Positions 3,035 through 60,104 of a stretch of DNA of 64,000 nucleotides are shown here, piece by piece. The notes under the pieces are model-generated. The model saw only the letters and a list, made by a program, of their open reading frames with translations. It was not told the origin of the DNA and ran no database searches. The position numbers and the translations under genes were made by a program. Position 1 is the first letter of the stretch, and every line of letters starts with the position of its first letter. Location: positions 18,430 through 82,429 of IMG/VR virus record IMGVR_UViG_3300048580_000994; one strand, given 5' to 3'. Source of the DNA: a virus.

Positions 3035-3120
3035 TCCGGGGTCGTCTAATTTGGTAGGACACCTGACTTTGAATCAGGGAGATTAACATCTCTGTGCAGG
3101 TTCGACTCCTGCTCCCGGAT
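3035..3120 (+). tRNA. tRNA-Gln(TTG) with long variable arm
   Basis: Anticodon arm CCTGA-CTTTGAA-TCAGG; extra arm GAGAT-TAAC-ATCTC. Confidence 0.9.
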
Positions 3121-3180
3121 CAAAAACAATAAGCGGTTGTAGGTGTAGACGTGTTAGATAGGAACCTTCATTTTTATTAT

Positions 3181-5845: not shown

Positions 5846-5930
5846 GCGGGTGTCGCATAGCGGCTATTGCGCTTGCTTGCCAAGCAAGAGACCCTAAAGG
5901 TCATCACGGATTCGAGTTCCGTCACCCGCT
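5846..5930 (+). tRNA. tRNA-Gly(GCC) with long variable arm
   Basis: Anticodon arm CTTGC-TTGCCAA-GCAAG; extra arm GACC-CTAAA-GGTC. Confidence 0.85.
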
Positions 5931-5952
5931 CCTAATAATATTTAAAGTTTGA

Positions 5953-9119: not shown

Positions 9120-10193
9120 TTATGGTATAAAATCACATTCCCATATGGTAATTAAATTAAATCCATCAGATAATAATTTATTTTCTCTTATTAATGTTGA
9201 TGTATATAGTTCACCGAATGTTTTCTTATTATTTGAATTAATATCTGATGGATTAAATTTAGATGGATTGCCGTGCCAATAATCACCATAAAATTCATAT
9301 ATAGTATTTGTTTCTGGGTTAAAGCCATCAACTTTTATTATTGATTTATCTGATAAAACTAATTCGATCTGTCTCATATTTTTTGGGATACCAATTGTGT
9401 CAAGCCATAAATTTTCTTTTTTACTTTGCAAACAATTTGGGCAATTCGAACCTGTCAAATGTAAGTCAGCTCTTTGTTGAAAAACACCATGTTTTTTACA
9501 AATTATATTGATTTTTGTTCTGGTGTTTATATATTCAACTAATGTGTAGTCATATTTATCACCATGAATTTTCTTGGCTTGTTCGATATATTCTGTTGTA
9601 GTTTTTCTGTTATTACCATAACATTTACTGCAACCAATACCAAGTAAATGTGTCCCAGGTGGTTGTTCAAAGTCGCCATGAATTGGGCAAGTTATTATTA
9701 TTTTTGTGGCTGCATTTATATATATAGTTTTATCATAATTATAAAAATTGTTGTGAATTGTTGATGCCTCTTTAATAAATTGTTCTTTTGTTTTTGTTTT
9801 ATTATCTGATGAGCACTTTGGGCATCCATGTCCACTAATATGATTGTCTGGTGTTTGTTCAAAATCACCATGAGTTGGGCATGTTATTACAATTTTATTA
9901 TCTGTTGATGTATAATTTATTTTATCATAATTATAAAAATTGTTGTGAATTGATGATGCTTCTTTAATAAATTGTTCTTTTGTTTTTCTACAACGTTGTG
10001 AGTTTTTTGCTCCTTTACATTTAGGACAACCATAACCTCTAGAATGGTTATCTGGTGTTTGTAAAAATATACCATGAGTTTTACAAATAATTTTTACTTT
10101 TTCTCTGGCTTTTTCATAAATGACAGATGTATAATCATATTTATTATTATGAATTTTTGATGATTTTTCTATAAATTTTAATAATTTTGACAT
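9120..10193 (-). CDS. Homing-type nuclease with tandem Zn-binding repeats (DUF723-like) and C-terminal PD-(D/E)xK/Vsr-like domain
   Basis: Four IICxxHGxFxQxPxxH..GCPKC repeats; VDGF...IYEFYGDYWHG...IWE. Confidence 0.8.
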   Translation of the reverse strand: MSKLLKFIEKSSKIHNNKYDYTSVIYEKAREKVKIICKTHGIFLQTPDNHSRGYGCPKCKGAKNSQRCRKTKEQFIKEASSIHNNFYNYDKINYTSTDNKIVITCPTHGDFEQTPDNHISGHGCPKCSSDNKTKTKEQFIKEASTIHNNFYNYDKTIYINAATKIIITCPIHGDFEQPPGTHLLGIGCSKCYGNNRKTTTEYIEQAKKIHGDKYDYTLVEYINTRTKINIICKKHGVFQQRADLHLTGSNCPNCLQSKKENLWLDTIGIPKNMRQIELVLSDKSIIKVDGFNPETNTIYEFYGDYWHGNPSKFNPSDINSNNKKTFGELYTSTLIRENKLLSDGFNLITIWECDFIP

Positions 10194-10684: not shown

Positions 10685-11860
10685 TTATTTTTTGTGTCTT
10701 GTCATTCCTCGCCAGAAACCTTCTGGTATTGTATCGTTATGATTTAATCTTGTATTAATTATTCCATTGGTTATATAAATTTTTCCAGACATAGATGCAC
10801 TTATTTTTTCTTTGTGTTCTTGGGTTTTTGATAAATGTTTGGATGTTATTACTATTGGTTGGATATTATTTTTATCCCAAGTTTGAATTTTTTTTATTAA
10901 TTCTTCGATGGACATTCCGATTCCAGTACCTTTAGTGATATTATCTAAATTGGATAATAATTGACAATTCGCTGGGTGTGATATAATTTTTGGGTCAATA
11001 TTATTTCTCCAGCCATATTCGACTGATATTATATGGTCTCTACAAACACCTTGTTTGTTATTAGTTGAATTGTAGAACCCATATTTTAATAATAAATCAT
11101 AGCCTTGTATATTTGGGTATAAGAAAACATCGAATAAAAATTTACATTCTTTTTTATAGATTTTTTTCTTATCTGTCATTTTTGTACCAGATTGTATTCT
11201 GTAATTTTGGTTTGCTATGGTTAATGTTCTTAAATTAATTCCTATTATTTTTAAAAACATTCCAAAATCACTATATTGGATTTTTAGATAGTTTTTAATT
11301 TCTTTTGCAGACATTTTTTCATTTGTGTATAGTCTATCTAATTCTTTTATTGAATTATTAATGTTTATTTGTGTTTGTTGATTGCCTAATTGAAAATTAA
11401 ATATATTAGCTAATTTTTTTGCAATCGGGAGTTTTGTTGGGTTATCCCACCCTGTGGCTGGTTTTAATTTAGGATGGTATATATTGCCTGTGATTGGGGA
11501 ATATTTAATTTTGGTATGTTGGTATTTGTTTTTTATTTTAATTGGGTTTTGTTTATTAATTTTTAATTTTTCAGATATTTGTTTTTTTGCGGTTTCAGGC
11601 ATTGCCCACCCGGTTTCTTTTCGTTTTTTATTATTATATTTAGCAGAACAAGAACTACTACAAAAATTGTTTGATTTATTATCATATTTTATCAAAATTC
11701 CACAATATAGACATTTTTTTGGGTTTTGGTTATATGTTTTGATGTTTTCATTTTTGGTATGATCGCCATAACATTTTGGTGAACAAAAAGTTGATGTTGT
11801 TTTTGCTGGTATAAATTCTTTTTTACATTCTGGGCATATAGCAGTTTTTTTCATTTGCAT
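10685..11860 (-). CDS. HNH-type endonuclease (Zn ribbons, HTH-like region, HPANC domain, NUMOD-like tail)
   Basis: RDHIIS...HPANC...DN motif; start moved to MQMKK after the CGGAGA RBS. Confidence 0.78.
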   Translation of the reverse strand: MQMKKTAICPECKKEFIPAKTTSTFCSPKCYGDHTKNENIKTYNQNPKKCLYCGILIKYDNKSNNFCSSSCSAKYNNKKRKETGWAMPETAKKQISEKLKINKQNPIKIKNKYQHTKIKYSPITGNIYHPKLKPATGWDNPTKLPIAKKLANIFNFQLGNQQTQININNSIKELDRLYTNEKMSAKEIKNYLKIQYSDFGMFLKIIGINLRTLTIANQNYRIQSGTKMTDKKKIYKKECKFLFDVFLYPNIQGYDLLLKYGFYNSTNNKQGVCRDHIISVEYGWRNNIDPKIISHPANCQLLSNLDNITKGTGIGMSIEELIKKIQTWDKNNIQPIVITSKHLSKTQEHKEKISASMSGKIYITNGIINTRLNHNDTIPEGFWRGMTRHKK

Positions 11861-11890
11861 TTTCTCCGAATAAAGTATATAAATAAAAGG

Positions 11891-11949
11891 AGTGGGACAA
11901 GCCCTTCTCCGATGGGTTTCCAATACTTCCGACGGTGTTGGATACCACT
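11891..11949 (+). ncRNA. Nuclease-divergent sRNA, copy 3
   Basis: AGTGG..AAGCCC-TTCTCCGAT-GGGTTT..CAATAC/GTGTTG..CCACT. Confidence 0.75.
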
Positions 11950-12002: not shown

Positions 12003-12078
12003 GGGTGTGTGAAGGGAATTTGGTATACCTTGTGTTCTTAGAAATCACAGTTTGCAGGTTCGATGCCTGTCGCACCCA
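12003..12078 (+). tRNA. tRNA-Leu(TAG) with short variable region
   Basis: Anticodon arm GTGTT-CTTAGAA-ATCAC; acceptor GGGTGTG/CGCACCC. Confidence 0.75.
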
Positions 12079-12093
12079 CTAAAATGTTTTTAT

Positions 12094-12167
12094 GGTCTTA
12101 TAGTGAAATTGGATATAACATCAGTCTACGAAACTGAAGATGGTGGGTTCAAATCCTCCTAAGACCG
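12094..12167 (+). tRNA. tRNA-Arg(ACG)
   Basis: Anticodon arm TCAGT-CTACGAA-ACTGA. Confidence 0.9.
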
Positions 12168-12176
12168 CTTATATTA

Positions 12177-12248
12177 TGGCTGGGCTGCAAGGTGCAGGGC
12201 TGTCTCTCATAAGGACGGATGCGTGGATTCGATTTCCATACCAGCCAC
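12177..12248 (+). tRNA. tRNA(CAT) Met or Ile2
   Basis: Anticodon arm TGTCT-CTCATAA-GGACG. Confidence 0.7.
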
Positions 12249-12259
12249 TACTAAAAAGT

Positions 12260-12368
12260 TTTTGAGCCGTTTATAAAACGTTATCTTTTTTTGTCAAAAA
12301 GACCTGTCAGTTCGACTCTGGCGATGGGCGGATTCCCGGTTTACATGTTTTATTACCATTTGTTCAAA
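12260..12368 (+). ncRNA. Permuted-tRNA scaffold element A
   Basis: TTTGAGC-CG..ATAAAACG-TTATC..[anticodon-like arm, T arm GTCAG-TTCGACT-CTGGC]..TGTTTTAT-TACC-ATTT-GTTCAAA. Confidence 0.7.
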
Positions 12369-12372
12369 AAAT

Positions 12373-12458
12373 GCGGGTAGCAGACATCTGGGGGTGTCAC
12401 CGGTCTTCCAAACCGGCTACTGTAAAAGGTATTTTGGATTCGATTTCCACTACCCGCT
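12373..12458 (+). tRNA. tRNA-Gly(TCC) with long variable arm
   Basis: Anticodon arm CCGGT-CTTCCAA-ACCGG; acceptor GCGGGTA/TACCCGC. Confidence 0.8.
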
Positions 12459-12460
12459 CT

Positions 12461-12593
12461 AAATTTGTGCCGAATAAGGAAGATTATCTCAAAACTGTGT
12501 GTTGTGATTTTCGAATGTCACCATCTTTTCGAAGATGTAGCTCAATGGTAGAGCAATAGTCAAAAACACTTCTTTAACACCTTGCATAAATTT
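12461..12593 (+). ncRNA. Permuted-tRNA scaffold element B (acceptor closed by TTCG)
   Basis: T arm, then CATCTT-TTCG-AAGATG, then D arm TAGCTCAATGGTAGAGCA inside the conserved scaffold. Confidence 0.8.
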
Positions 12594-12600
12594 AAAATTT

Positions 12601-12735
12601 AAGAGCCGTATGAAAAATGTTATCCTGTTAAGATCGAAGTCGTGAGTTCGATTCTCACTTACCCCGCTAAAAATATATTATGGGGTAATAACTCAGTGGT
12701 AGAGTGCGTAAAGTGTTTTTCAACCATTTGCTCTT
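12601..12735 (+). ncRNA. Permuted-tRNA scaffold element C: circularly permuted tRNA-Asn(GTT)
   Basis: 3' half 12622-12666 precedes 5' half 12682-12708; joined they give anticodon arm CGATC-CTGTTAA-GATCG and acceptor GGGGTAA/TTACCCC-G. Confidence 0.85.
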
Positions 12736-12739
12736 ATAT

Positions 12740-12812
12740 CACCCTATCGTATAATTGGATAGTACCACACACTCTCAATGTGTAAATACGGGATCATAGC
12801 CCGTTAGGGTGA
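12740..12812 (+). tRNA. tRNA-Glu(CTC)
   Basis: Anticodon arm ACACA-CTCTCAA-TGTGT. Confidence 0.8.
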
Positions 12813-12815
12813 CGA

Positions 12816-12945
12816 AATCGTTATAGGGAACAACAACCTTTCGCAAGAATGGGTTGCCCTATGACGTAATAGGTCAACGACGACCAAGTTCAAGTGTTTA
12901 TCGTGCTTTGGAAAATCCCACTATACCGGTTGTGTGGGAACGATT
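12816..12945 (+). ncRNA. Unclassified multi-hairpin RNA between tRNAs
   Basis: AATCGTT/AACGATT closure with internal hairpins; no ORF. Confidence 0.4.
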
Positions 12946-12950
12946 ATTTT

Positions 12951-13023
12951 TGCCCCTTGGCGCAACTGGTAGCGCAGCGCACTCTGAATGCGAAGGTTCC
13001 AATTTCGAATATTGGAGGGGCAG
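12951..13023 (+). tRNA. tRNA-Gln(CTG)
   Basis: Anticodon arm CGCA-CTCTGAA-TGCG; acceptor TGCCCCT/AGGGGCA. Confidence 0.85.
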
Positions 13024-13028
13024 CTAAA

Positions 13029-13099
13029 ATAAGCCGAAGGTAAATGGTTATCGCAAACATCAACTTTGAAAAAACATCATTCACCAACCCTTGCTTATT
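13029..13099 (+). ncRNA. Scaffold element D (minimal insert)
   Basis: ATAAGC-CG-AA-GGTAAATGG-TTATC...TCATTCACC-AACC-CTT-GCTTAT. Confidence 0.7.
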
Positions 13100-14135
13100 T
13101 TATTATTTTTTGTTTTGATAGAATTATATATCCTTTTATAGCTAATTTATCATAGCTTATCTTTGTAAAAATATTATGATTTTTTAGGAATTCTCTCATA
13201 TTATTTGTTGTTATAATTGATTTGTCAGGTAATTGAATTTTATACAGGAATTGTGGGTTAGGTTTTCTGGTTGTTGGTGATATATAATTTGGATTTTGTT
13301 GTTTAAGAAATTCTCTGGATTCTTTGGGTGTTCTTATTGATATATTTAATAATCTTAATAATTTATGCAAACCACCAGTGTTTTTATGATTAACTAACCT
13401 ACTAAGTTCTATAGAACTATATTTATTATATAAATTTTTGGCATAGTTTTTACATAATTCCCAATCAGTAATAAAGTTTGGTGTGCCTAAATTTGCCAGA
13501 TTCAAATTAAAATATTTGTTTAATCCTGGTAATGCTTGTTTACTCATATCTATTTTGCATATTTGGCATAGTGTTTTTGATTTATGTCTTGTGCCGCAAA
13601 ATGGACAGATCGTTAATTTTAATTTTTTTTCTTCTAATGATAATTTTGGTTGATAACCGTTTTTTGGCCCATACCATCCTTGTCCTATATATTCTTCTAT
13701 TAATGTTTTTGGGACTTGTTTTTGTAAGTTTATTATCCAAGAATGTGTGACCCAGCACATTCCATATCTTGGGTTTTTGCTACCTGTAAATTGTTGCATT
13801 GTTTTGCTCATGTTTTTTCTGGCATATTCATATAAATGGGAATTAAAATATCTATGATTATTTACAGTTGTTTTCATCATATTAAAAGCTCTGACCATAC
13901 TATACCAATTCTCTGTATTAATTGGTAACATTTTACAAAGAAGATAGTGGCATATAAAATGTTCTCTGGCAGTTAATAGAACTAAATTTTCTTTGGTGTT
14001 ATCCCCTTTCAATGATTTTGGTAATATATGGTGTTTTTCATAATATTGGGTTTTGGATTTAACCCTTGGTTGTGATTTGGCATTAGTAATAATATTATAA
14101 TACCAGTTGTAGTATTTATTTTTTATAAAAATCAT
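13095..14135 (-). CDS. HNH homing endonuclease (Mob-like, N-terminal HNH)
   Basis: YYEKHHILPKSLKGDNTKENLVLLTAREHFICHYLL. Confidence 0.88.
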   Translation of the reverse strand: MIFIKNKYYNWYYNIITNAKSQPRVKSKTQYYEKHHILPKSLKGDNTKENLVLLTAREHFICHYLLCKMLPINTENWYSMVRAFNMMKTTVNNHRYFNSHLYEYARKNMSKTMQQFTGSKNPRYGMCWVTHSWIINLQKQVPKTLIEEYIGQGWYGPKNGYQPKLSLEEKKLKLTICPFCGTRHKSKTLCQICKIDMSKQALPGLNKYFNLNLANLGTPNFITDWELCKNYAKNLYNKYSSIELSRLVNHKNTGGLHKLLRLLNISIRTPKESREFLKQQNPNYISPTTRKPNPQFLYKIQLPDKSIITTNNMREFLKNHNIFTKISYDKLAIKGYIILSKQKIIK

Positions 14136-14524: not shown

Positions 14525-14703
14525 GATATCGGTCTTTTTTTATGACCAAAATTACAATTTTTAATTGTGGTTTGATAGTGTTGGAAATTCTAAGAATTTC
14601 TGTAACCATTAAAAACTATCACAACATTGCACCAATGGTCCAGTTGACGGGCATTGTTAGGAAACGTGCGAATCGTTCTTGGTGTACAACATGGAGAAAT
14701 ATC

Positions 14704-14979
14704 ATGGTAGGAAGAATCGAAAACTATATCCATTCGGATTCACAAATCACCCATAAGGGTGGGGTAATAGTCAAAGTAACAGCCCAAACAGATTTCGCTG
14801 CGAGAACGTTAGAGTTTATCCAGTTCGTTCAATTTATTCCAAAATATTGCTATGCTTGTGGGGGCGAAACATGGAATGACGTGATCGAAATGTTCCCAGA
14901 GTTGGAAGACAAACGTATCGCAGTTGAAAAAATCTTGAAAGAAACCATTCAGGTATCCTTCAAGACACTTCAAGTATAA
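14704..14979 (+). CDS. Mini EF-Ts-like protein (single core subdomain)
   Basis: GRIENYIH...GGVIVKVTAQTDFAARTLEF matches the EF-Ts G-I-sYIH..G.lve..ETDFVAR segment; GGAG RBS. Confidence 0.7.
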   Translation: MVGRIENYIHSDSQITHKGGVIVKVTAQTDFAARTLEFIQFVQFIPKYCYACGGETWNDVIEMFPELEDKRIAVEKILKETIQVSFKTLQV

Positions 14980-16243: not shown

Positions 16244-16363
16244 GCCGGATTAGCAAAGCGGTCGAATGCACCGGTTTTGTTAAGCACAGAGGGCGTGGTA
16301 ATTCACGATGTGTGCTTTACAAACCGGTATCCCACAACGCAGGTTCGAATCCTGTGTCCGGCA
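16244..16363 (+). tRNA. tRNA-Thr(TGT) with 40-nt anticodon-loop intron (about 16281-16320)
   Basis: Removing the hairpin insert restores CCGGT-TTTGTAA-ACCGG; acceptor GCCGGAT/GTCCGGC. Confidence 0.8.
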
Positions 16364-23026: not shown

Positions 23027-23521
23027 ATGCGTTTAAATGATTTATCGGAAATTAAAATTTATTCCTTACAACCTGTTGATTTTTCACCAGAACAATTGGA
23101 TGAAATTTGTGACCTTATCTGTACTGGTGGTGAAGTGACAAAAGTAGGATTGGAGAAAAGAATTCGCCAAGCCAAATTAATCGCAGTTGCTGAAAAAGAT
23201 GGTAGATTTGTTGCTTGTTCATCCATAAAAGTCCCAGACCCAATGTATAGAGCTAAAATTATACAAAGGGCAGGTATAATATTTAAACCTCAACTTGAAT
23301 TAGGATGGGGTTTTACCCTACCAGAATATCGCAACCAAAAACTTGGGACAAAACTGAAAGAAGAATTGTTTAAAAACGTCCCCCCAACAAATGTTTATGC
23401 CACTGTTAGATTGAAGAATAAACCAGCCATCAAGGGCATCGAAAAATTTGGGTTTAAGGCTGTTGGAACACCATATCAGGGAATGAGTGGGGATTTGATC
23501 TCCATATTTTTAGTCAGATAA
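23027..23521 (+). CDS. GNAT acetyltransferase (MRLNDL leader)
   Basis: ELGWGFTLPEYRNQKLG motif A; NKPAIKGIEKFGF motif B. Confidence 0.8.
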   Translation: MRLNDLSEIKIYSLQPVDFSPEQLDEICDLICTGGEVTKVGLEKRIRQAKLIAVAEKDGRFVACSSIKVPDPMYRAKIIQRAGIIFKPQLELGWGFTLPEYRNQKLGTKLKEELFKNVPPTNVYATVRLKNKPAIKGIEKFGFKAVGTPYQGMSGDLISIFLVR

Positions 23522-23635
23522 AGGGCCGAATAAAATTGATTATCGGATAATAGAATTGTTAATGCAGTTTTTAGATGGTTCAAGCCCATCAATCAATCGC
23601 AAGATTGAAAAATTCAATTTTAAAACCTTGCCCTT
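23521..23635 (+). ncRNA. Scaffold element E with T arm and GNRA-closed stem
   Basis: AAGGGC-CG-AA-TAAAATTGA-TTATC..GATGG-TTCAAGC-CCATC..TCAATTTTA-AAACC-TT-GCCCTT. Confidence 0.75.
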
Positions 23636-23674
23636 TTGATTTTTTGTGATATGATGAATAAAAGGAGAATAATA

Positions 23675-23908
23675 ATGGATGCAACATTAGACATACCACT
23701 TCAAGTTACAGTTCGTTTGGGTAAAACAAAAATGTCCATCAAACAACTTTTGAAAATGGGTAGGGGTGCTGTATTGGAATTGGATAATTTAGTCACAGAC
23801 CCAATTGAACTATTAGTCAATGGAAAGGTTGTTGCATTGGGTGAAGTTGAAATTGTTGGTGATAATTATGGGATTAAGATAACTGAAGTTTTTGGGAAAA
23901 CAGCTTGA
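23675..23908 (+). CDS. fliN: FliN-like flagellar switch (SpoA) domain protein
   Basis: LDIPLQVTVRLGKTKMSIKQLL...GAVLELD...LVNGKVVALGEVEIVGDNYGIKITE. Confidence 0.88.
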   Translation: MDATLDIPLQVTVRLGKTKMSIKQLLKMGRGAVLELDNLVTDPIELLVNGKVVALGEVEIVGDNYGIKITEVFGKTA

Positions 23909-26140: not shown

Positions 26141-26646
26141 GAGATTGATATGCCAAGAATGTTAGACGAAGAAACATCAGCGAAAATGATTTGTCCCTAC
26201 CTTCAAGATAAATGCCACACCCGCACTTGTATGGCTTGGCGTTTTGAAGACAAACCAATTCCAGAAGACGAGAAGAACCCTAAATTTAGAGGGTATTGTG
26301 TTATAATGGAAAAATAAGAGTTGAATTCATTCTCATGTTGCCCAGCAGTGCAACATAAATGATAAAATCGCTAATTTAATATGCTCTATTGCGCTTTCAA
26401 GTATTAAATGTGCGTAAACCGGAATTCGTAAAATATTAAGGAAATTTTATCAACTGCACCATCTTATCCTTGACACCAACTAAATATCTTGCTAATATAT
26501 CCTGATGACGTTAGAAAGGATTGTATGATGATTATCACCAGTGGGGTCATTTTTTTGATTTGGCTTCTTAGCTTATTTTCCAGTAAAGCACCAAGTGGAT
26601 TCATTTTCGTCATTTGGTTCTTTAGTCTTTTTTGTCTGTGAATCAA

Positions 26647-27474
26647 ATGAAACAAAAAACATTAACCAAAACAATATCGTTCTCAGGTGTAGGACTTCAC
26701 AATGGTAAACAGGTTAATGTTTTACTCTTACCAGCCCCACTAAACACCGGAATTATTTTTCAGCGAACAGACGTTGGGGGAAATAATATCATCCCAGCCT
26801 TGTGGAACCTTGTCCACACAACCAACCTAAACACTTGTTTGAAAAATGACAACGACGTTACCATTTCCACAATTGAACACTTGATGGCAGCATTATCAGC
26901 CTCTAACGTCACCAATTGTCATATCCAAGTCAACGGACCAGAAATTCCAATTTTGGATGGCTCTGCAGATATTTTTTACCAGACAATCAAACCCGATACC
27001 ACAGAACAAAAACTGAACCAAAAATCCATCAAGATTTTGAAACCAATAACCACCCAAACAGTGTCTTTGATTCCGGCTGACGAATTTTCCATTGAACTTT
27101 TTATTGATTTCCCAGCCAAAATCATAGGGACACAATCATTCCACTATCGAGACAACTTCCCTGAAATCTCCCAAGCCAGAACCTTTGGGTTTGGGAACGA
27201 GATTGACTACCTTCGGAAAAATAACCTTGCCTTGGGTGGGAGTTTGGATAACGCTATCGTTGTGGCTAACGATGGGGAAACGATTTTGAACGATGGTGGG
27301 CTGAAATACAATGATGAATTCGTCCGTCATAAAGTCATCGATGCTATCGGGGATTTGTATCTCGCTGGTTACCCAATCATTGGTAAATTCATTGGGGTAG
27401 GTTCTGGACATTCAATGAATAACGCCCTATTGCGGGAACTTTTCAAAAACCAAGATTGTTGGGAGATGGTATGA
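26647..27474 (+). CDS. lpxC: UDP-3-O-acyl-GlcNAc deacetylase
   Basis: GVGLH, TIEHLMAAL, PILDGSA, ARTFGF, HKVIDAIGDL and GSGH motifs. Confidence 0.95.
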   Translation: MKQKTLTKTISFSGVGLHNGKQVNVLLLPAPLNTGIIFQRTDVGGNNIIPALWNLVHTTNLNTCLKNDNDVTISTIEHLMAALSASNVTNCHIQVNGPEIPILDGSADIFYQTIKPDTTEQKLNQKSIKILKPITTQTVSLIPADEFSIELFIDFPAKIIGTQSFHYRDNFPEISQARTFGFGNEIDYLRKNNLALGGSLDNAIVVANDGETILNDGGLKYNDEFVRHKVIDAIGDLYLAGYPIIGKFIGVGSGHSMNNALLRELFKNQDCWEMV

Positions 27475-37170: not shown

Positions 37171-38586
37171 ATGGATATTATTTTAAAAAAAGCCAGATTT
37201 ATATCATTTTTTATTATTGCCAGTATAACGTTGGTAATAGTTATTAGTTTTTATTTCATGACCATGAATAATATTGACCAAGATCGTTTGGTTAAGATGA
37301 CTAATATTTATGGTCGAGGGGAAAGTGTTATAAAAGTATTAGATAGACATGTTCATAACTCAATCGAAGATGTTTATTGGGCATTGCGAGTATATGAAAA
37401 TAAATGGGTTGACACACCAGATGATGAATTTGTTGTTTGGGTTAGTAAGAATACTGTGAACACTTTTTATGCATCTAAGATAATAATCAATAGTGTTAGT
37501 GGTGTCTCTTATAGATATGAAGACAATAAAATAACCAAACAAAAAAGTGATAATAATTTTAATCAAAGTAGTATTATTGTTGGAACTAATTTGGTTATGG
37601 AAAATTCAAATGATGGGTTGGAAATAATTTTTAAATATACTATTAAGGGGAAGGGTGTTATTAATATTCATGTACCACAAAATTATTTGGTTGATATTTT
37701 TTCAAATCTTAGGCATCATTGGGAAATTTTGATAATAGATGTTACAAATAATATATATTCTGATTTAGTTAATGAAATTGATAAATCAATTTCTTCGTTT
37801 GATAAAAATAAAATATTAAATGATTATAAATGTAATACCAAACTGCTAATAAAAAATGAAAATGATGATTTTTCGTTTCTTGGTAATTGTTATAAATCTG
37901 TTTATTATAATTTATATTATGTGGTATTATATGATTATACTTATGAAATGTCTGGCTTTGTTGATAGAAGTAAGAAAACATTATCATCATTTTCATTGTT
38001 TGTTTTTATGATATTATTAATTGGTATAGCGTTATTAATAGTTTCTGATAAACAAATTAGAGTATATGTTGAGTTAAAACAAATGAAAGACGAGTTTGAG
38101 GAATTGTCGAGTATTGATGAATTAACTTCTGTTACCAATCGCAGGGCTGTTATGAAAAGGTTGGTTCAAGAAATGACCAGAATGTCTCGTCATGGTCGCC
38201 CACTATCCATTATGTCATTTGATATAGATTTTTTCAAAAAAATCAATGATACTTATGGGCATAATGTTGGAGATATAGTTTTGAAGAATTTGGTGATTGA
38301 GGTACAAAAATGCCTTCGTCAAACAGATTTGCTTGGTAGAATGGGTGGTGAAGAATTTTTGATATTGTTGGGCGATACCAAATTAGATGGTGCTACTATA
38401 TTGGCTGAACGTATTCGTGAAACTATACAAAACATACAGATAGTTAAAGACATTAACATCACCATTAGTGTTGGTGTTGGTGAATTTAAAAAGGGAGAGA
38501 TTACCAGTCAATTATTAGCACGTGTTGATTTGGCATTATATAGAGCTAAAAATGAGGGAAGAAATAAGGTTTGTATATCCATTTAA
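37171..38586 (+). CDS. Membrane-anchored sensor diguanylate cyclase
   Basis: Two TM helices; DELT..NRR, DIDFFKKINDTYGH, RQTD I-site, RMGGEEF. Confidence 0.93.
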   Translation: MDIILKKARFISFFIIASITLVIVISFYFMTMNNIDQDRLVKMTNIYGRGESVIKVLDRHVHNSIEDVYWALRVYENKWVDTPDDEFVVWVSKNTVNTFYASKIIINSVSGVSYRYEDNKITKQKSDNNFNQSSIIVGTNLVMENSNDGLEIIFKYTIKGKGVINIHVPQNYLVDIFSNLRHHWEILIIDVTNNIYSDLVNEIDKSISSFDKNKILNDYKCNTKLLIKNENDDFSFLGNCYKSVYYNLYYVVLYDYTYEMSGFVDRSKKTLSSFSLFVFMILLIGIALLIVSDKQIRVYVELKQMKDEFEELSSIDELTSVTNRRAVMKRLVQEMTRMSRHGRPLSIMSFDIDFFKKINDTYGHNVGDIVLKNLVIEVQKCLRQTDLLGRMGGEEFLILLGDTKLDGATILAERIRETIQNIQIVKDINITISVGVGEFKKGEITSQLLARVDLALYRAKNEGRNKVCISI

Positions 38587-59063: not shown

Positions 59064-60104
59064 CTATATAGCCTCCTTTTTATTTTTAGTTTCGATGCCT
59101 ATGTTTATTAAAAACATATTAAAACCTTTATATTCAACCCCGAACATTTCTTGGATTTTTTTAGGTGTTAAATTTTCTTTATGATATAATCTTGACAATT
59201 CATTGATTGCAGAAATTATGTTATTTTCTGTTTCATAAGGATTTCCCAACTCAAAATTAAACATTTTCGCCAATACTCTTGCTGACACCATATTTGGATT
59301 ATCCCATCCTGTTGCTGGTTTTAGTTTGGTGTTATAAATTTTTCCAGTTATAGATGAATATTTAATTGGGGTATAATCATATTTATTATTATCTGGTTTT
59401 GGTAACATAACAGGATCGATTTTAATGTTAAATAAATTTATATCAAAGTTGTCATTATATTTTTCATTCCATTGTATAATTCTGTTTTTTAATTCATCTA
59501 ATGTTATGTGCGATTCTGCTTGTTTTCTGCTATTATCAACATTCATTAAAAACTGACAATTTGCTGGATGTCCAATAATTGATGGGTGTATAAAATTATC
59601 AAACCCATTTTTTACAGAAAAAATGTGGTCTAATGTTGCTCCTTGGATATCAGGTGTTTTTGTGTCCCAAAAACCATATTTTAAATATAGTTCATACCCA
59701 TCAATTAAATGATATATATCTTTCATAAAAACGAAACGACATAATATCCTATAACTTTCATAATTAACCCGATAATCATCTGTTAATCCATTTGTCTTTA
59801 ATAGCGTTTCTCGTTGTTTCATTCTTGATTCTTTTGTTCTGTTTTCATTTGATTTTTTTGCAGCACAAGTCATCGAACAATATTTTTGTTTAGTTTCTCT
59901 GTCCTCATATTTGATGATTGTGTTGCATGTTGGGCATATTATTGGATTTTCATAATATAATTTTCTTGTTTTAATTGATTTATGTGTTTTAACACATTGG
60001 TCACAACAGTAAGATGTGAACCTTTTGTCCTTTGGTATAAAATCTTTTCCACAATCTGGATTTTGGCATTTAAATGTTTCTTTAATTTTTGTAGCCATAA
60101 TCAT
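59064..60104 (-). CDS. HNH-type endonuclease (HPANC family)
   Basis: LDHIFS...HPANC...DN; shares the KLKPATGWDNP domain with 10685-11860. Confidence 0.78.
   Translation of the reverse strand: MIMATKIKETFKCQNPDCGKDFIPKDKRFTSYCCDQCVKTHKSIKTRKLYYENPIICPTCNTIIKYEDRETKQKYCSMTCAAKKSNENRTKESRMKQRETLLKTNGLTDDYRVNYESYRILCRFVFMKDIYHLIDGYELYLKYGFWDTKTPDIQGATLDHIFSVKNGFDNFIHPSIIGHPANCQFLMNVDNSRKQAESHITLDELKNRIIQWNEKYNDNFDINLFNIKIDPVMLPKPDNNKYDYTPIKYSSITGKIYNTKLKPATGWDNPNMVSARVLAKMFNFELGNPYETENNIISAINELSRLYHKENLTPKKIQEMFGVEYKGFNMFLINIGIETKNKKEAI

What the first reader, a model, noticed from the sequence alone, without database searches (positions are those of the whole stretch)
12601..12735. Element C reconstitutes a complete tRNA-Asn(GTT) when its halves are joined at position 28/29
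Seen: the 3' half (12622-12666, ATC-CTGTTAA-GATCG-AAGTC-GTGAG-TTCGATT-CTCAC-TTACCCC-G) lies upstream of the 5' half (12682-12708, GGGGTAA-TA-ACTC-AGTGGTA-GAGT-G-CG). A 15-nt AT-rich spacer like ordinary inter-tRNA spacers separates them. Joining ..CG to ATC.. gives a fully paired CGATC/GATCG anticodon stem, a 7-bp acceptor stem and G73. The ATC of the invariant TTATC is itself part of the tRNA, which predicts a cut at TT|ATC. Inference: this could be a functional permuted gene that standard tRNA scanners would miss.
Basis: seen in the sequence. Interest (0 to 1): 0.82.

Follow-up and report, generated by a model that had tools for sequence, protein, structure and literature searches.

The report
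Phage Y RNA mimicking asparagine tRNA
This stretch is most likely not a scrambled tRNA gene awaiting splicing but a phage small RNA of the Y-RNA type, in which a complete imitation of an asparagine tRNA sits on the handle that docks to the Ro60 ring protein.

Summary
The 3' half (12622-12666), the 15-nt spacer and the 5' half (12682-12708) are as described, and the script-joined halves are called tRNA-Asn(gtt) by ARAGORN.

Element C is one of five paralogous RNAs in this 82-kb jumbo-phage fragment. All five share a covarying two-helix handle with the Y-RNA hallmarks: GCCG with a bulged C, then UUAUC.

A search of viral contigs found 95 relatives. Of 72 pattern-carrying records, 47 encode a Ro60/TROVE protein, against about 0.7% of cultured-phage records. 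So do 24 of the 27 near-complete records. Of 48 elements, 28 lie within 4 kb of that gene, always on the same strand.

The anticodon-like hairpin completed across the junction is a family trait: 30 of 80 elements against 2% of shuffles. Long acceptor loops often encode CCA (9 of 19).

Best reading: a YrlA-type Y RNA carrying a whole tRNA mimic, probably opened by RNase P but not re-ligated into a tRNA.

The scan has noted similar phage RNAs on other DNA. No Ro60 gene lies in this fragment, and no RNA data exist.

The parts
12601..12606 (+). Handle helix P1, 5' strand (AAGAGC). It pairs with 12730-12735.
   Evidence: Pairs verified. Covariation across the five copies (helix 1: 95.5% of cells paired, 5 of 10 pairs changed on both sides).
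12605..12608 (+). GCCG motif. C12607 is the unpaired bulge and G12608 pairs with U12729. This is the candidate Ro60 contact site; C reads GCCGUA where the published motif is GNCGAA.
   Evidence: CG 5 of 5, then an unpaired C, then G.U 5 of 5. The motif GNCGAAN0-1G is described in PMC4201824, section 6.
12612..12620 (+). Handle helix P2, 5' strand. It pairs with 12713-12721.
   Evidence: Helix 2: no pair is invariant, and 7 of 10 pairs change on both sides among the five copies.
12620..12624 (+). Invariant UUAUC. It corresponds to the YUAY motif of YrlA. Its last three bases (AUC) form the 5' strand of the anticodon-like hairpin.
   Evidence: GTTATC or ATTATC is present in 90 of 97 family members. 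YUAY and its kink are described in the literature.
12622..12634 (+). Anticodon-like hairpin: AUC, then the 7-nt loop CUGUUAA (GUU at 12627-12629), then GAU.
   Evidence: The same feature is in 30 of 80 relatives against 2% of shuffles.
12635..12636 (+). C42 and G43. They pair across the junction with C27 and G28 (12707-12708).
12637..12641 (+). Variable loop AAGUC.
   Evidence: Cloverleaf.
12642..12658 (+). T arm: GUGAG-UUCGAUU-CUCAC.
   Evidence: Aligned to the YrlA T arm.
12659..12666 (+). Acceptor 3' strand UUACCCC plus discriminator G73.
12667..12681 (+). 15-nt A/U-rich loop or spacer that closes the acceptor stem and ends in UAU. RNase P cleavage is predicted after 12681.
   Evidence: this is among the longest loops in the family. 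Nine of 19 loops of 9 nt or more end in TAT, and 9 of 19 start N73-CCA. The precedent is M. smegmatis YrlA.
12682..12708 (+). tRNA 5' half: acceptor 5' strand, U8 A9, D arm (ACUC-AGUGGUA-GAGU), G26, C27 G28.
   Evidence: Aligned to the YrlA D arm.
12709..12712 (+). Linker UAAA between the tRNA part and the handle. It lies opposite U12621.
   Evidence: AAAA or TAAA follows the 5' half in 17 of 27 relatives.
12713..12721 (+). Handle helix P2, 3' strand.
12722..12735 (+). Internal-loop strand AACCAUU, U12729 (partner of G12608), and the P1 3' strand GCUCUU (12730-12735).
12260..12368 (+). Paralog A: the same handle with a hairpin, a T arm and a short stem, but no D arm.
   Evidence: R1 75.6 bits. 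Fold.
12463..12590 (+). Paralog B: the same handle. The tRNA mimic has its acceptor stem sealed by UUCG, and the handle takes the place of the anticodon loop (classical YrlA topology).
   Evidence: R1 91.9 bits. Rfam YrlA 32.8 bits.
13027..13099 (+). Paralog D: the handle only, with no tRNA-like part.
   Evidence: R1 65 bits. Fold.
23519..23636 (+). Paralog E: the same handle with three hairpins including a T arm, but no D arm.
   Evidence: R1 108.7 bits. Fold z-score -3.87.

Best explanation
Element C (12601-12735, + strand) is a gene for a phage Y RNA of the YrlA type.

Its two ends pair into a bipartite handle:
- helix P1;
- a bulged C within GCCG, followed by a G.U pair;
- an internal loop;
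- helix P2;
- UUAUC.

This handle is the docking site for a Ro60/Rsr (TROVE) ring protein. That protein would be encoded in the missing two thirds of the phage genome or by the host.

Mounted on the handle is a circularly permuted but otherwise complete tRNA-Asn mimic. It has a T arm, a 7-bp acceptor stem, a D arm, a variable loop and, unlike published YrlA, an anticodon arm. The handle leaves the tRNA body through the 5' strand of the anticodon stem, between nt 28 and 29.

Inferred, not shown: the 16-nt acceptor loop is opened by RNase P at 12681|12682. The 3' side is trimmed to G73 and receives CCA, as happens to M. smegmatis YrlA. The result would be a two-piece RNA held together by the handle. 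I expect no excision and ligation into a free tRNA.

The tRNA-shaped module would recruit or distract a tRNA-binding factor at the Ro60 particle. Which factor that is remains unknown.
For: Shown in the window:
- Five copies share GCCG-N11-TTATC.
- Their flanks form two helices: 92.6% of cells are paired, against 38-53% when the partner is slid. Twelve of 20 pairs change on both sides, and 0 of 500 shuffles reach this.
- A model of the handle alone (R1) finds only these five in the 82-kb record, at 65-109 bits. The next best match scores 15 bits.
- Rfam YrlA aligns its T arm, acceptor hairpin and D arm to C (34.3 bits, E 1.7e-5) and to B (32.8 bits).

Shown in relatives:
- A pattern made of the 5' handle motif plus a T loop hit at least 119 viral stretches.
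- R1 then found 62 elements in 80 of those loci and 33 in the other 39. R1 also requires the 3' strand, which was not in the pattern.
- TROVE is present in 27 of the 36 records with R1 hits, and in 13 of the 13 that are at least 90% complete. It is present in 20 of 36 further pattern-hit records.
- By contrast, 354 of 50,697 cultured-phage records match a TROVE query.
- Of 48 elements in TROVE-bearing records, 28 lie within 4 kb of the gene. All 28 are on its strand and 21 are upstream. This holds for 19 of 27 records.
- In the largest phages the elements instead sit in tRNA arrays 86-332 kb from TROVE, as in this window.

Family traits:
- The anticodon hairpin is a family trait.
- Loops of 9 nt or more encode N73-CCA in 9 of 19 cases, against 0 of 16 short loops.

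Literature:
- YrlA motifs, and RNase P cleavage plus CCA addition in M. smegmatis: PMC4201824, sections 5, 6 and 8.
- YrlA as a circularly permuted tRNA: 10.1101/312249, passages.
- Phage Ro60 binding phage Y-like RNAs: PMC12135203, passages.
Against: - No TROVE or DUF2828 gene lies in the 82,429-bp record. The record is only 33% complete.
- The Rfam YrlA score is half the gathering score (34.3 against 69). Weak YrlA hits occur in 13 of 14 control genomes.
- None of 14 relative loci reaches YrlA gathering score either.
- C's motif reads GCCGUA, not GNCGAA. Only 46 of 97 family members have GNCGAA.
- The folding energy of C is not unusual: z = -0.72. The proposed structure scores -18.1 kcal/mol against an MFE of -31.2, and the 3-bp anticodon hairpin is marginal on its own.
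- C has CUA, not CCA, after G73.
- The relatives were ascertained with a pattern taken from this window.
- No transcript, end-mapping or binding datum exists for this element.
Confidence: 0.8

Rival explanations
1. True permuted tRNA-Asn gene. The handle brings the ends together, an endonuclease cuts at both junction sites, and a ligase joins nt 28 to nt 29. RNase P and a 3' nuclease then remove the spacer, giving a working tRNA-Asn(GUU).
For: - The joined sequence is a canonical cloverleaf with the Asn anticodon and G73. G73 is the Asn discriminator by recalled identity rules.
- Junction pairs covary in 27 relatives.
- Long loops with N73-CCA and a U-ending leader look like real tRNA ends.
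Against: - The same handle carries cargo that cannot become a tRNA. D has none, B is sealed by UUCG, and A and E lack a D arm.
- 16 of 64 parsed relatives have acceptor loops of 5 nt or less.
- The hairpin start shifts relative to TTATC: offsets 2, 3, 4 and 5.
- There is no bulge-helix-bulge at the junction.
- No tRNA_int_endo, RtcB or RNA_ligase was found in the record. The record is incomplete.
- Discriminators of other anticodon-bearing relatives do not follow recalled identity rules: GTT with C, GTC with C or T, GTG with A or T.
- Three ordinary Asn(gtt) genes are already present.
Confidence: 0.05
2. A tRNA-shaped decoy or sensor that works without Ro60. The handle is bound by another protein or merely stabilises the RNA. 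The intact anticodon loop serves as bait for an anticodon nuclease or another tRNA-targeting host defence.
For: - The record holds no Ro60 gene.
- In the largest phages the elements lie in tRNA arrays far from TROVE.
- Anticodon loops are canonical and diverse. Asn, Asp and His types make up 12 of 37.
- Earlier scan notes describe similar mimics with other partners (unchecked).
Against: - The handle carries the Ro60-type motif.
- 24 of 27 near-complete carrier records encode TROVE.
- Adjacency is strand-specific.
- A decoy role is compatible with Ro60 binding, so this is a rival only in its 'without Ro60' part.
Confidence: 0.08
3. An inert remnant of two tandem tRNA-Asn genes that lost their outer halves.
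For: - The 3' half, an inter-tRNA-like spacer and the 5' half in this order are what such a deletion would leave.
- The published origin model derives YrlA from dimeric tRNA transcripts.
- Chen et al. warn that dimeric tRNAs can score as false YrlA hits.
Against: - The flanks form the conserved, covarying handle.
- All tertiary-contact positions are intact.
- A variant contig from another lake sample is identical across 12589-12756 but carries 19 differences in the next 50 nt (one contig, depth 3.5).
- 95 relatives share the same architecture.
Confidence: 0.03

Closest known systems
YrlA (Y RNA-like A; Rfam RF02553), especially the M. smegmatis form (Chen et al. 2014, PMC4201824; Wang et al. 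2018, 10.1101/312249)
   Same: - The ends pair into a Ro60-binding stem with a GNCGAA-type motif and YUAY.
- The T arm lies 5' of the D arm, with an acceptor-like hairpin between them, so the arrangement is a circularly permuted tRNA.
- M. smegmatis YrlA has a 7-bp acceptor stem, is cut by RNase P and receives CCA.
   Different: - Published YrlA 'lacks the anticodon loop', and the Rfam consensus has no hairpin there. C and about 37 of its 77 T-arm-bearing relatives keep a canonical 7-nt anticodon loop plus a separate variable loop.
- Scores are below Rfam gathering.
- Both handle strands are conserved.
- No Ro60 gene lies within the 82 kb held.
- Chen et al. mention a less conserved 'V' stem-loop upstream of T. 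Their supplementary figures, which I could not open, may already show such hairpins.
Yrl1/Yrl2 of Thermus phage phiLo with phage Ro60 (PMC12135203)
   Same: Phage-encoded Y-like RNAs with a CGAA motif in a stem-bulge-stem. They lie upstream of a phage Ro60 gene, and binding was shown in vitro.
   Different: In the passages I read, no tRNA-like module is described for Yrl1 or Yrl2. I made no sequence comparison.
Permuted tRNA genes of Cyanidioschyzon merolae and Thermofilum pendens (Soma 2007 and Chan 2011, as cited; otherwise recalled)
   Same: - The 3' half lies upstream of the 5' half.
- The acceptor stem is closed by a short intervening sequence that RNase P and RNase Z remove.
- The ends pair next to the junction.
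   Different: - Those use a bulge-helix-bulge motif, a splicing endonuclease and a ligase, and they yield working tRNAs.
- Here there is no BHB and no such enzymes were found.
- The paired ends here form a Ro60-type handle that is shared with non-tRNA cargo.
Deinococcus radiodurans Yrn1
   Same: A Y RNA with both strands of the Ro-binding helix conserved and a potential 'anticodon arm'.
   Different: In Yrn1 the arms are in a different order, the loop has 6 nt, and there is no full D arm.

Membership tests
YrlA-type Y RNA | 5'/3' ends pair into a stem carrying the Ro60 motif GNCGAAN0-1G | tested here: inconclusive
   The stem, the bulged C and the G.U pair are present and covary. C reads GCCGUAUG, that is GNCG followed by UA rather than AA. 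Paralogs B, D and E read GCCGAA. 46 of 97 family members have GNCGAA.
YrlA-type Y RNA | Conserved YUAY after the stem | tested here: met
   UUAUC is present in all five window copies. GTTATC or ATTATC is present in 90 of 97.
YrlA-type Y RNA | tRNA-like module with the T arm 5' of the D arm and an acceptor-like hairpin between them | tested here: met
   cmscan alignment to RF02553. Cloverleaf.
YrlA-type Y RNA | Score at or above the Rfam gathering threshold (69 bits) | tested here: not met
   34.3 bits. None of 14 relative loci reaches it.
YrlA-type Y RNA | Encoded within about 4 kb of a Ro60/TROVE gene on the same strand (criterion of Chen et al.) | tested here: not met
   No TROVE gene lies in the 82-kb record, which is 33% complete. 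The criterion is met for relatives: 28 of 48 elements, all on the same strand, in 19 of 27 records.
YrlA-type Y RNA | Bound by Ro60/Rsr | not testable with these tools
   Needs pull-down or EMSA.
Permuted tRNA gene (algal/archaeal type) | Joined halves give a canonical tRNA | tested here: met
   ARAGORN calls tRNA-Asn(gtt), 72 nt.
Permuted tRNA gene (algal/archaeal type) | Bulge-helix-bulge motif at the junction | tested here: not met
   The junction is an asymmetric loop, with U12621 opposite UAAA 12709-12712 between the anticodon stem and P2.
Permuted tRNA gene (algal/archaeal type) | Splicing endonuclease and RNA ligase available | tested here: inconclusive
   PF01974, PF01139 and PF09414 are absent from the record. 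The record is incomplete and the host is unknown.
Permuted tRNA gene (algal/archaeal type) | Circular intermediate and mature tRNA with the junction | not testable with these tools
   No RNA run is listed.

The most novel reading that the evidence does not exclude
Element C and its long-loop relatives are opened by RNase P and carry or receive CCA. The result is a two-piece, Ro60-tethered RNA that is a complete tRNA with a real anticodon arm. In C it would carry the Asn identity set, GUU plus G73.

This RNA would be recognised, and perhaps charged, by an aminoacyl-tRNA synthetase. It would serve the phage as a chargeable bait or sensor for tRNA-targeting host defences. In the boldest form, a free tRNA-Asn would be released from it by an unknown bacterial or phage cut-and-ligate activity.
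Probability: 0.12. Interest if true: 0.8.

Novelty: new variant of a known kind. Interest (0 to 1): 0.45.

Why it matters
Phage and bacterial Y RNAs with tRNA-like modules have been known since 2014, but what the tRNA-shaped part does is still open.

This window shows a form in which the mimic is complete, down to a canonical anticodon loop and a tRNA-like acceptor end. The survey shows that such forms are common in large phages, interleaved with their tRNA arrays, and are missed by Rfam at its curated cut-off.

Anticodon arms with many different anticodons, together with encoded CCA ends, point to partners that read those parts of a tRNA. Candidates are synthetases, anticodon nucleases, and modification or repair enzymes. 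This gives testable hypotheses.

Practically, annotators should not call these loci split or permuted tRNA genes. Two cultured jumbo phages, Sinorhizobium phage Phosso and Agrobacterium phage Atu_ph07, carry matches and could serve as test systems.

Tried and rejected
- Exact 24-mer of C in viral contigs: no match.
- blastn of the array against cultured phages: only a tRNA-Gln match.
- Protein-seeded searches for close relatives, using the 412-aa neighbour and the topoisomerase II medium subunit: none.
- R1 on five distantly related jumbo and huge phages: nothing convincing. The best match had E 0.956, or 0.013 with filters off, and lacked P1.
- Hunting by eye and by R1 for handle-like RNAs beside the TROVE genes of RsoM2USA and LR745206 gave only weak, inconclusive candidates.
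- Rfam E-value scan of paralog E: no YrlA or Y_RNA match. No Y_RNA (RF00019) match was listed in 12150-13150 at E up to 10.
- Brute-force joining with free junctions scored by ARAGORN was too permissive. 32 of 67 elements gave some call, many of them 'tRNA-???'. I dropped it in favour of an explicit register-fixed parse with shuffles.
- The intended negative control failed as a control. Pattern-hit records without an R1 hit also carry TROVE in 20 of 36 cases, so they are largely true family members. I used a tblastn base rate instead. That base rate is a lower bound, because RsoM2USA's TROVE was not among its hits.
- Nearest-neighbour energies neither support nor refute the anticodon hairpin of C.
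- Promoter and terminator scan: counts do not differ from shuffles.
- Sequencing runs: no RNA holder is listed.
- The four DNA runs laid gave only short contigs, and most of the stretch is uncovered.
- I did not run complex prediction, structure prediction or the large protein searches, because no partner protein is at hand in this record.
- tRNAscan-SE is not available. ARAGORN stood in for it.
- Supplementary files of Chen et al. 2014 (Fig. S1, Tables S1 and S2: the phage YrlA list and drawings) were closed. They may already show anticodon-like 'V' hairpins or CCA-bearing loops, which would lower the novelty.
Full report
WHAT IS IN THE SEQUENCE

- The 45-nt 3' half is at 12622-12666.
- A 15-nt A/T-rich spacer is at 12667-12681.
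- The 27-nt 5' half is at 12682-12708.

A script that sliced the two halves out of window.fa and joined them gave a 72-nt sequence. ARAGORN calls it tRNA-Asn(gtt), with a 7-bp acceptor stem, a 4-bp D stem, a 5-bp anticodon stem (CGAUC/GAUCG), the loop CUGUUAA, the variable loop AAGUC, the T loop UUCGAUU and G73.

On the native DNA neither ARAGORN (32 tRNAs in the window) nor Rfam at gathering scores (29 matches) reports anything in 12601-12735.

THE ELEMENT IS ONE OF FIVE WITH A COMMON HANDLE

Five places on the + strand carry GCCG-N11-TTATC, at 12266, 12469, 12605, 13033 and 23525. By count alone this is not significant: 6 were found, 2.28 expected, and 5 of 100 shuffles reach 6. The flanks, however, align in register (A1) and form two helices:
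- P1 ends in G-C and C-G.
- An unpaired C follows.
- Then comes an invariant G.U pair.
- Then an internal loop whose 3' strand reads ACC(N)UU.
- Then P2, of about 9 bp.

Measured on A1:
- 92.6% of cells are paired, against 38-53% when the 3' partners are slid by 1-3 columns.
- Twelve of 20 pairs change on both sides.
- No P2 pair is invariant.
- 0 of 500 shuffles reach any of the five measures.

A covariance model of the handle alone (R1) finds exactly these five in the whole 82,429-bp record, at 65-108.7 bits. The next match scores 15.4 bits with E 0.94.

The cargo between the handle strands differs:
- D (13027-13099) has none.
- B has a T arm, a D arm and an acceptor stem sealed by UUCG.
- A and E have a T arm but no D arm.
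- Only C gives a whole tRNA.

A signal whose purpose was to splice permuted tRNAs would not be expected on such cargo.

THE HANDLE IS A Y-RNA HANDLE

An E-value scan of 12150-13150 against Rfam gives YrlA (RF02553) at 12610-12726 (34.3 bits, E 1.7e-5) and at 12474-12580 (32.8 bits). The T arm, the acceptor hairpin and the D arm are aligned arm for arm.

Both scores are below the gathering score of 69. Weak YrlA matches also occur in 13 of 14 control genomes. This alone is therefore only a lead.

Chen et al. 2014 (PMC4201824; sections 5, 6 and 8 read) define YrlA by:
- a 5' GNCGAAN0-1G motif that resembles the GGUCCGA contacted by Ro60;
- a conserved YUAY;
- T and D stem-loops with an acceptor-like stem-loop between them;
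- in many members, a fourth 'V' stem-loop upstream of T.

They also show that M. smegmatis YrlA, the one with a 7-bp acceptor stem, is cut by RNase P and receives CCA in vivo.

Wang et al. (10.1101/312249, passages) make four relevant statements:
- They note that YrlA lacks the anticodon loop.
- They trace the family to dimeric tRNA transcripts.
- They raise, without evidence, the possibility of processing towards canonical tRNAs.

The window's GCCG(A/U)(A/U) and UUAUC fit the first two motifs.

RELATIVES AND THEIR PARTNER

The record is a jumbo-phage fragment, which IMG/VR classes as 'provirus':
- It is 33% complete with 35% G+C.
- It carries 42 ARAGORN tRNAs.
- It encodes both topoisomerase II subunits, PRPP synthetase and dCMP deaminase.
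- Homing endonucleases flank the array.

Close relatives were not found by DNA or by single proteins.

Tandem hits and contigs of 130-480 kb are common among them. R1 also demands the 3' strands, which were not in the pattern. It matched 62 elements in 80 loci and 33 in the remaining 39, at E up to 0.01.

TROVE (PF05731) association:
- 27 of the 36 records with R1 hits have it, and 13 of the 13 that are at least 90% complete.
- 20 of 36 further records that matched only the pattern have it, and 11 of 14 near-complete ones. I had meant these as a negative control. They evidently are family members that the five-sequence model misses.
- For scale, a TROVE domain from one of these phages finds 354 of 50,697 cultured-phage records by tblastn (0.7%, a lower bound).

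Position relative to TROVE:
- Of 48 elements in TROVE-bearing records, 28 lie within 4 kb of the domain match.
- All 28 are on the gene's strand, and 21 are upstream.
- This holds for 19 of 27 records.

This is the criterion by which Chen et al. assigned YrlA genes. In the other eight records, mostly phages of 300-480 kb, the elements lie 8-332 kb from TROVE. They sit inside tRNA arrays, with up to 43 tRNAs in 14 kb. This window looks the same.

Phage Ro60 binding phage Y-like RNAs has been shown for Thermus phage phiLo (PMC12135203, passages). TROVE with a 'tRNA-like partner' is noted in some jumbo phages (PMC7824862, passage).

Two cultured jumbo phages with annotated Ro-like proteins hold R1 matches: Phosso has 3 (best E 5.8e-4) and Atu_ph07 has 2 (best E 4.1e-4). 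Two of the Phosso matches lie in an unannotated 645-nt gap.

THE ANTICODON ARM IS A FAMILY TRAIT, NOT A QUIRK OF C

I parsed the 97 distinct elements (92 from viral contigs, 5 from the window) with the T arm as anchor and tRNA numbering fixed:
- 27 have a local hairpin of 2-5 bp with a 7-nt loop (U33, R37). Its stem is completed to 5 of 5 pairs by the nucleotides that follow nt 26 of the downstream 5' half.
- 6 have a fully local 5-bp hairpin.
- 4 have a hairpin with unparsed junction pairs.
- 17 have the classical YrlA topology, with the handle in place of the anticodon loop, like B.
- 23 are 'other'.
- 13 are handle-only.
- 7 were not parsed.

A hairpin of 3 bp or more in that register occurs in 30 of 80 testable elements, against 2.0% of 200 shuffles each. 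All five stem pairs covary, with three to five pair types per position. The loops carry 20 different triplets.

What it shows is that the four-armed shape forms. It does not show that the RNA is cut and ligated.

The hairpin begins at different offsets from the first T of TTATC: 3 in 13 elements, 5 in 10, 4 in 3, and 2 only in C. A conserved cut at TT|ATC is therefore not supported.

The junction in C is U12621 opposite UAAA 12709-12712, which is not a bulge-helix-bulge.

THE ACCEPTOR END

In 64 elements with a parsed acceptor stem, the 'loop' from nt 73 to the base before nt 1 ranges from 1 to 21 nt.
- Sixteen have loops of 5 nt or less, often UUCG or GAAA. These are sealed mimics.
- Of the 19 with loops of 9 nt or more, nine read N73-CCA and nine end in UAU just before nt 1.
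- None of the 16 short loops has CCA.

C belongs to the long class. It has G73, then CUA rather than CCA, and it ends in UAU.

An encoded CCA inside a loop makes sense only if the loop is opened, or if something reads it in place. Together with the M. smegmatis precedent, this is why I infer RNase P cleavage after 12681, followed by trimming and CCA addition. That step is inference. I put it at about even odds for C.

AGAINST A WORKING tRNA

- Three ordinary Asn(gtt) genes exist in the record.
- No tRNA splicing endonuclease, RtcB or RNA ligase family matches in the 82 kb (the record is incomplete).
- Discriminators of other anticodon-bearing relatives do not track the identity rules as I recall them. 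G73 in C may therefore be chance.
- A handle of about 17 bp projecting from the anticodon stem would not fit a ribosomal A site. This last point is reasoning and was not tested.

CONSERVATION AND EXPRESSION

No RNA run holds the stretch.

A 254-nt contig from another lake-water sample is identical over 12589-12756, which covers all of C. It carries 19 listed differences in 12757-12806, inside the neighbouring tRNA-Glu. This is a single contig at depth 3.5.

VERDICT

The finding is real. The 'permuted tRNA' is best read as the cargo of a phage YrlA-type Y RNA, not as a tRNA gene.

Compared with published YrlA, it is a variant in three respects:
- it keeps a canonical anticodon arm;
- it belongs to a large phage family that Rfam's cut-off misses;
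- the long-looped members of that family carry tRNA-like ends.

Earlier notes of this scan describe similar phage RNAs on other DNA. I treated those as leads only. The partner protein for this particular phage, any processing, and the function of the mimic all remain untested.

Noticed in passing
window 12373-12457 (+): Rfam tRNA-Sec match just over gathering (49.1 against 47 bits), but the anticodon loop reads CUUCCAA (UCC, Gly), with a long variable arm. ARAGORN does not call it.
   Followed up: no
window 12005-12078 and 12178-12247 (+): Two further tRNA-like stretches that ARAGORN misses. They score Rfam tRNA 34.3 bits (over gathering) and 19 bits (under gathering).
   Followed up: no
window 12757-12806: A contig from a second lake-water sample differs at 19 positions inside tRNA-Glu(ctc), while the 168 nt upstream, including element C, are identical. 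This suggests replacement of a tRNA cassette next to a conserved Y RNA. It rests on one contig at depth 3.5.
   Followed up: partly
window 12652-12681 (+): A weak sigma-70-like match (9 of 12). Its -10 hexamer lies in the acceptor-loop spacer of C, just upstream of the tRNA 5' half. Scan counts do not differ from shuffles.
   Followed up: no
relatives, alignments A2 and A3: Among 37 anticodon-bearing relatives, 12 have Asn, Asp or His-type triplets (GTT, ATT, GTC, ATC, GTG, ATG). These are the queuosine/colicin E5 target class as I recall it. The elements are not independent, so the excess is only a lead.
   Followed up: partly
relatives: Acceptor loops of 9 nt or more encode N73-CCA in 9 of 19 elements and end in UAU before nt 1 in 9 of 19. 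Short loops never have CCA (0 of 16).
   Followed up: yes
L071 7254-7478 (-): A permuted tmRNA (Rfam RF04321, 71.4 bits against a gathering score of 47) sits in a 165-kb viral contig. It lies within its tRNA array and near its Y-RNA elements and TROVE gene.
   Followed up: no
L011 340-918 (LR745206, upstream of its TROVE ORF at 919-2370): A 575-nt non-coding stretch on the strand of the TROVE gene holds a GGCGAAG motif at 774 and repeated GAGATACTTCGA words. It may hold Y RNAs of another type that R1 does not detect.
   Followed up: partly
L166 1264-1398 and 1501-1637 (Sinorhizobium phage Phosso 24187-24321 and 24424-24560): Two family members lie in an unannotated gap between a helicase CDS and a hypothetical CDS of a cultured phage. 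The first has an anticodon-like loop and A73-CCA in its acceptor loop. A terminator-like hairpin lies between them.
   Followed up: partly
window 10685-11923 (-), 13095-14135 (-), 59064-60104 (-), 9120-10193 (-): Four HNH/homing-endonuclease-like ORFs. Two of them directly flank the tRNA/Y-RNA cluster.
   Followed up: partly
window 14542-14979, 23636-23908, 26632-27474, 37171-38586: Host-like genes in the phage fragment: a short EF-Ts-like ORF (weak), a FliN C-terminal domain protein, LpxC, and a GGDEF diguanylate cyclase.
   Followed up: no
window 3035-3121, 5846-5932, 16244-16363 and others: Several tRNAs are 80-120 nt long by ARAGORN or Rfam. They have long variable arms or insertions, as other first-stage notes on this genome also say.
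   Followed up: no
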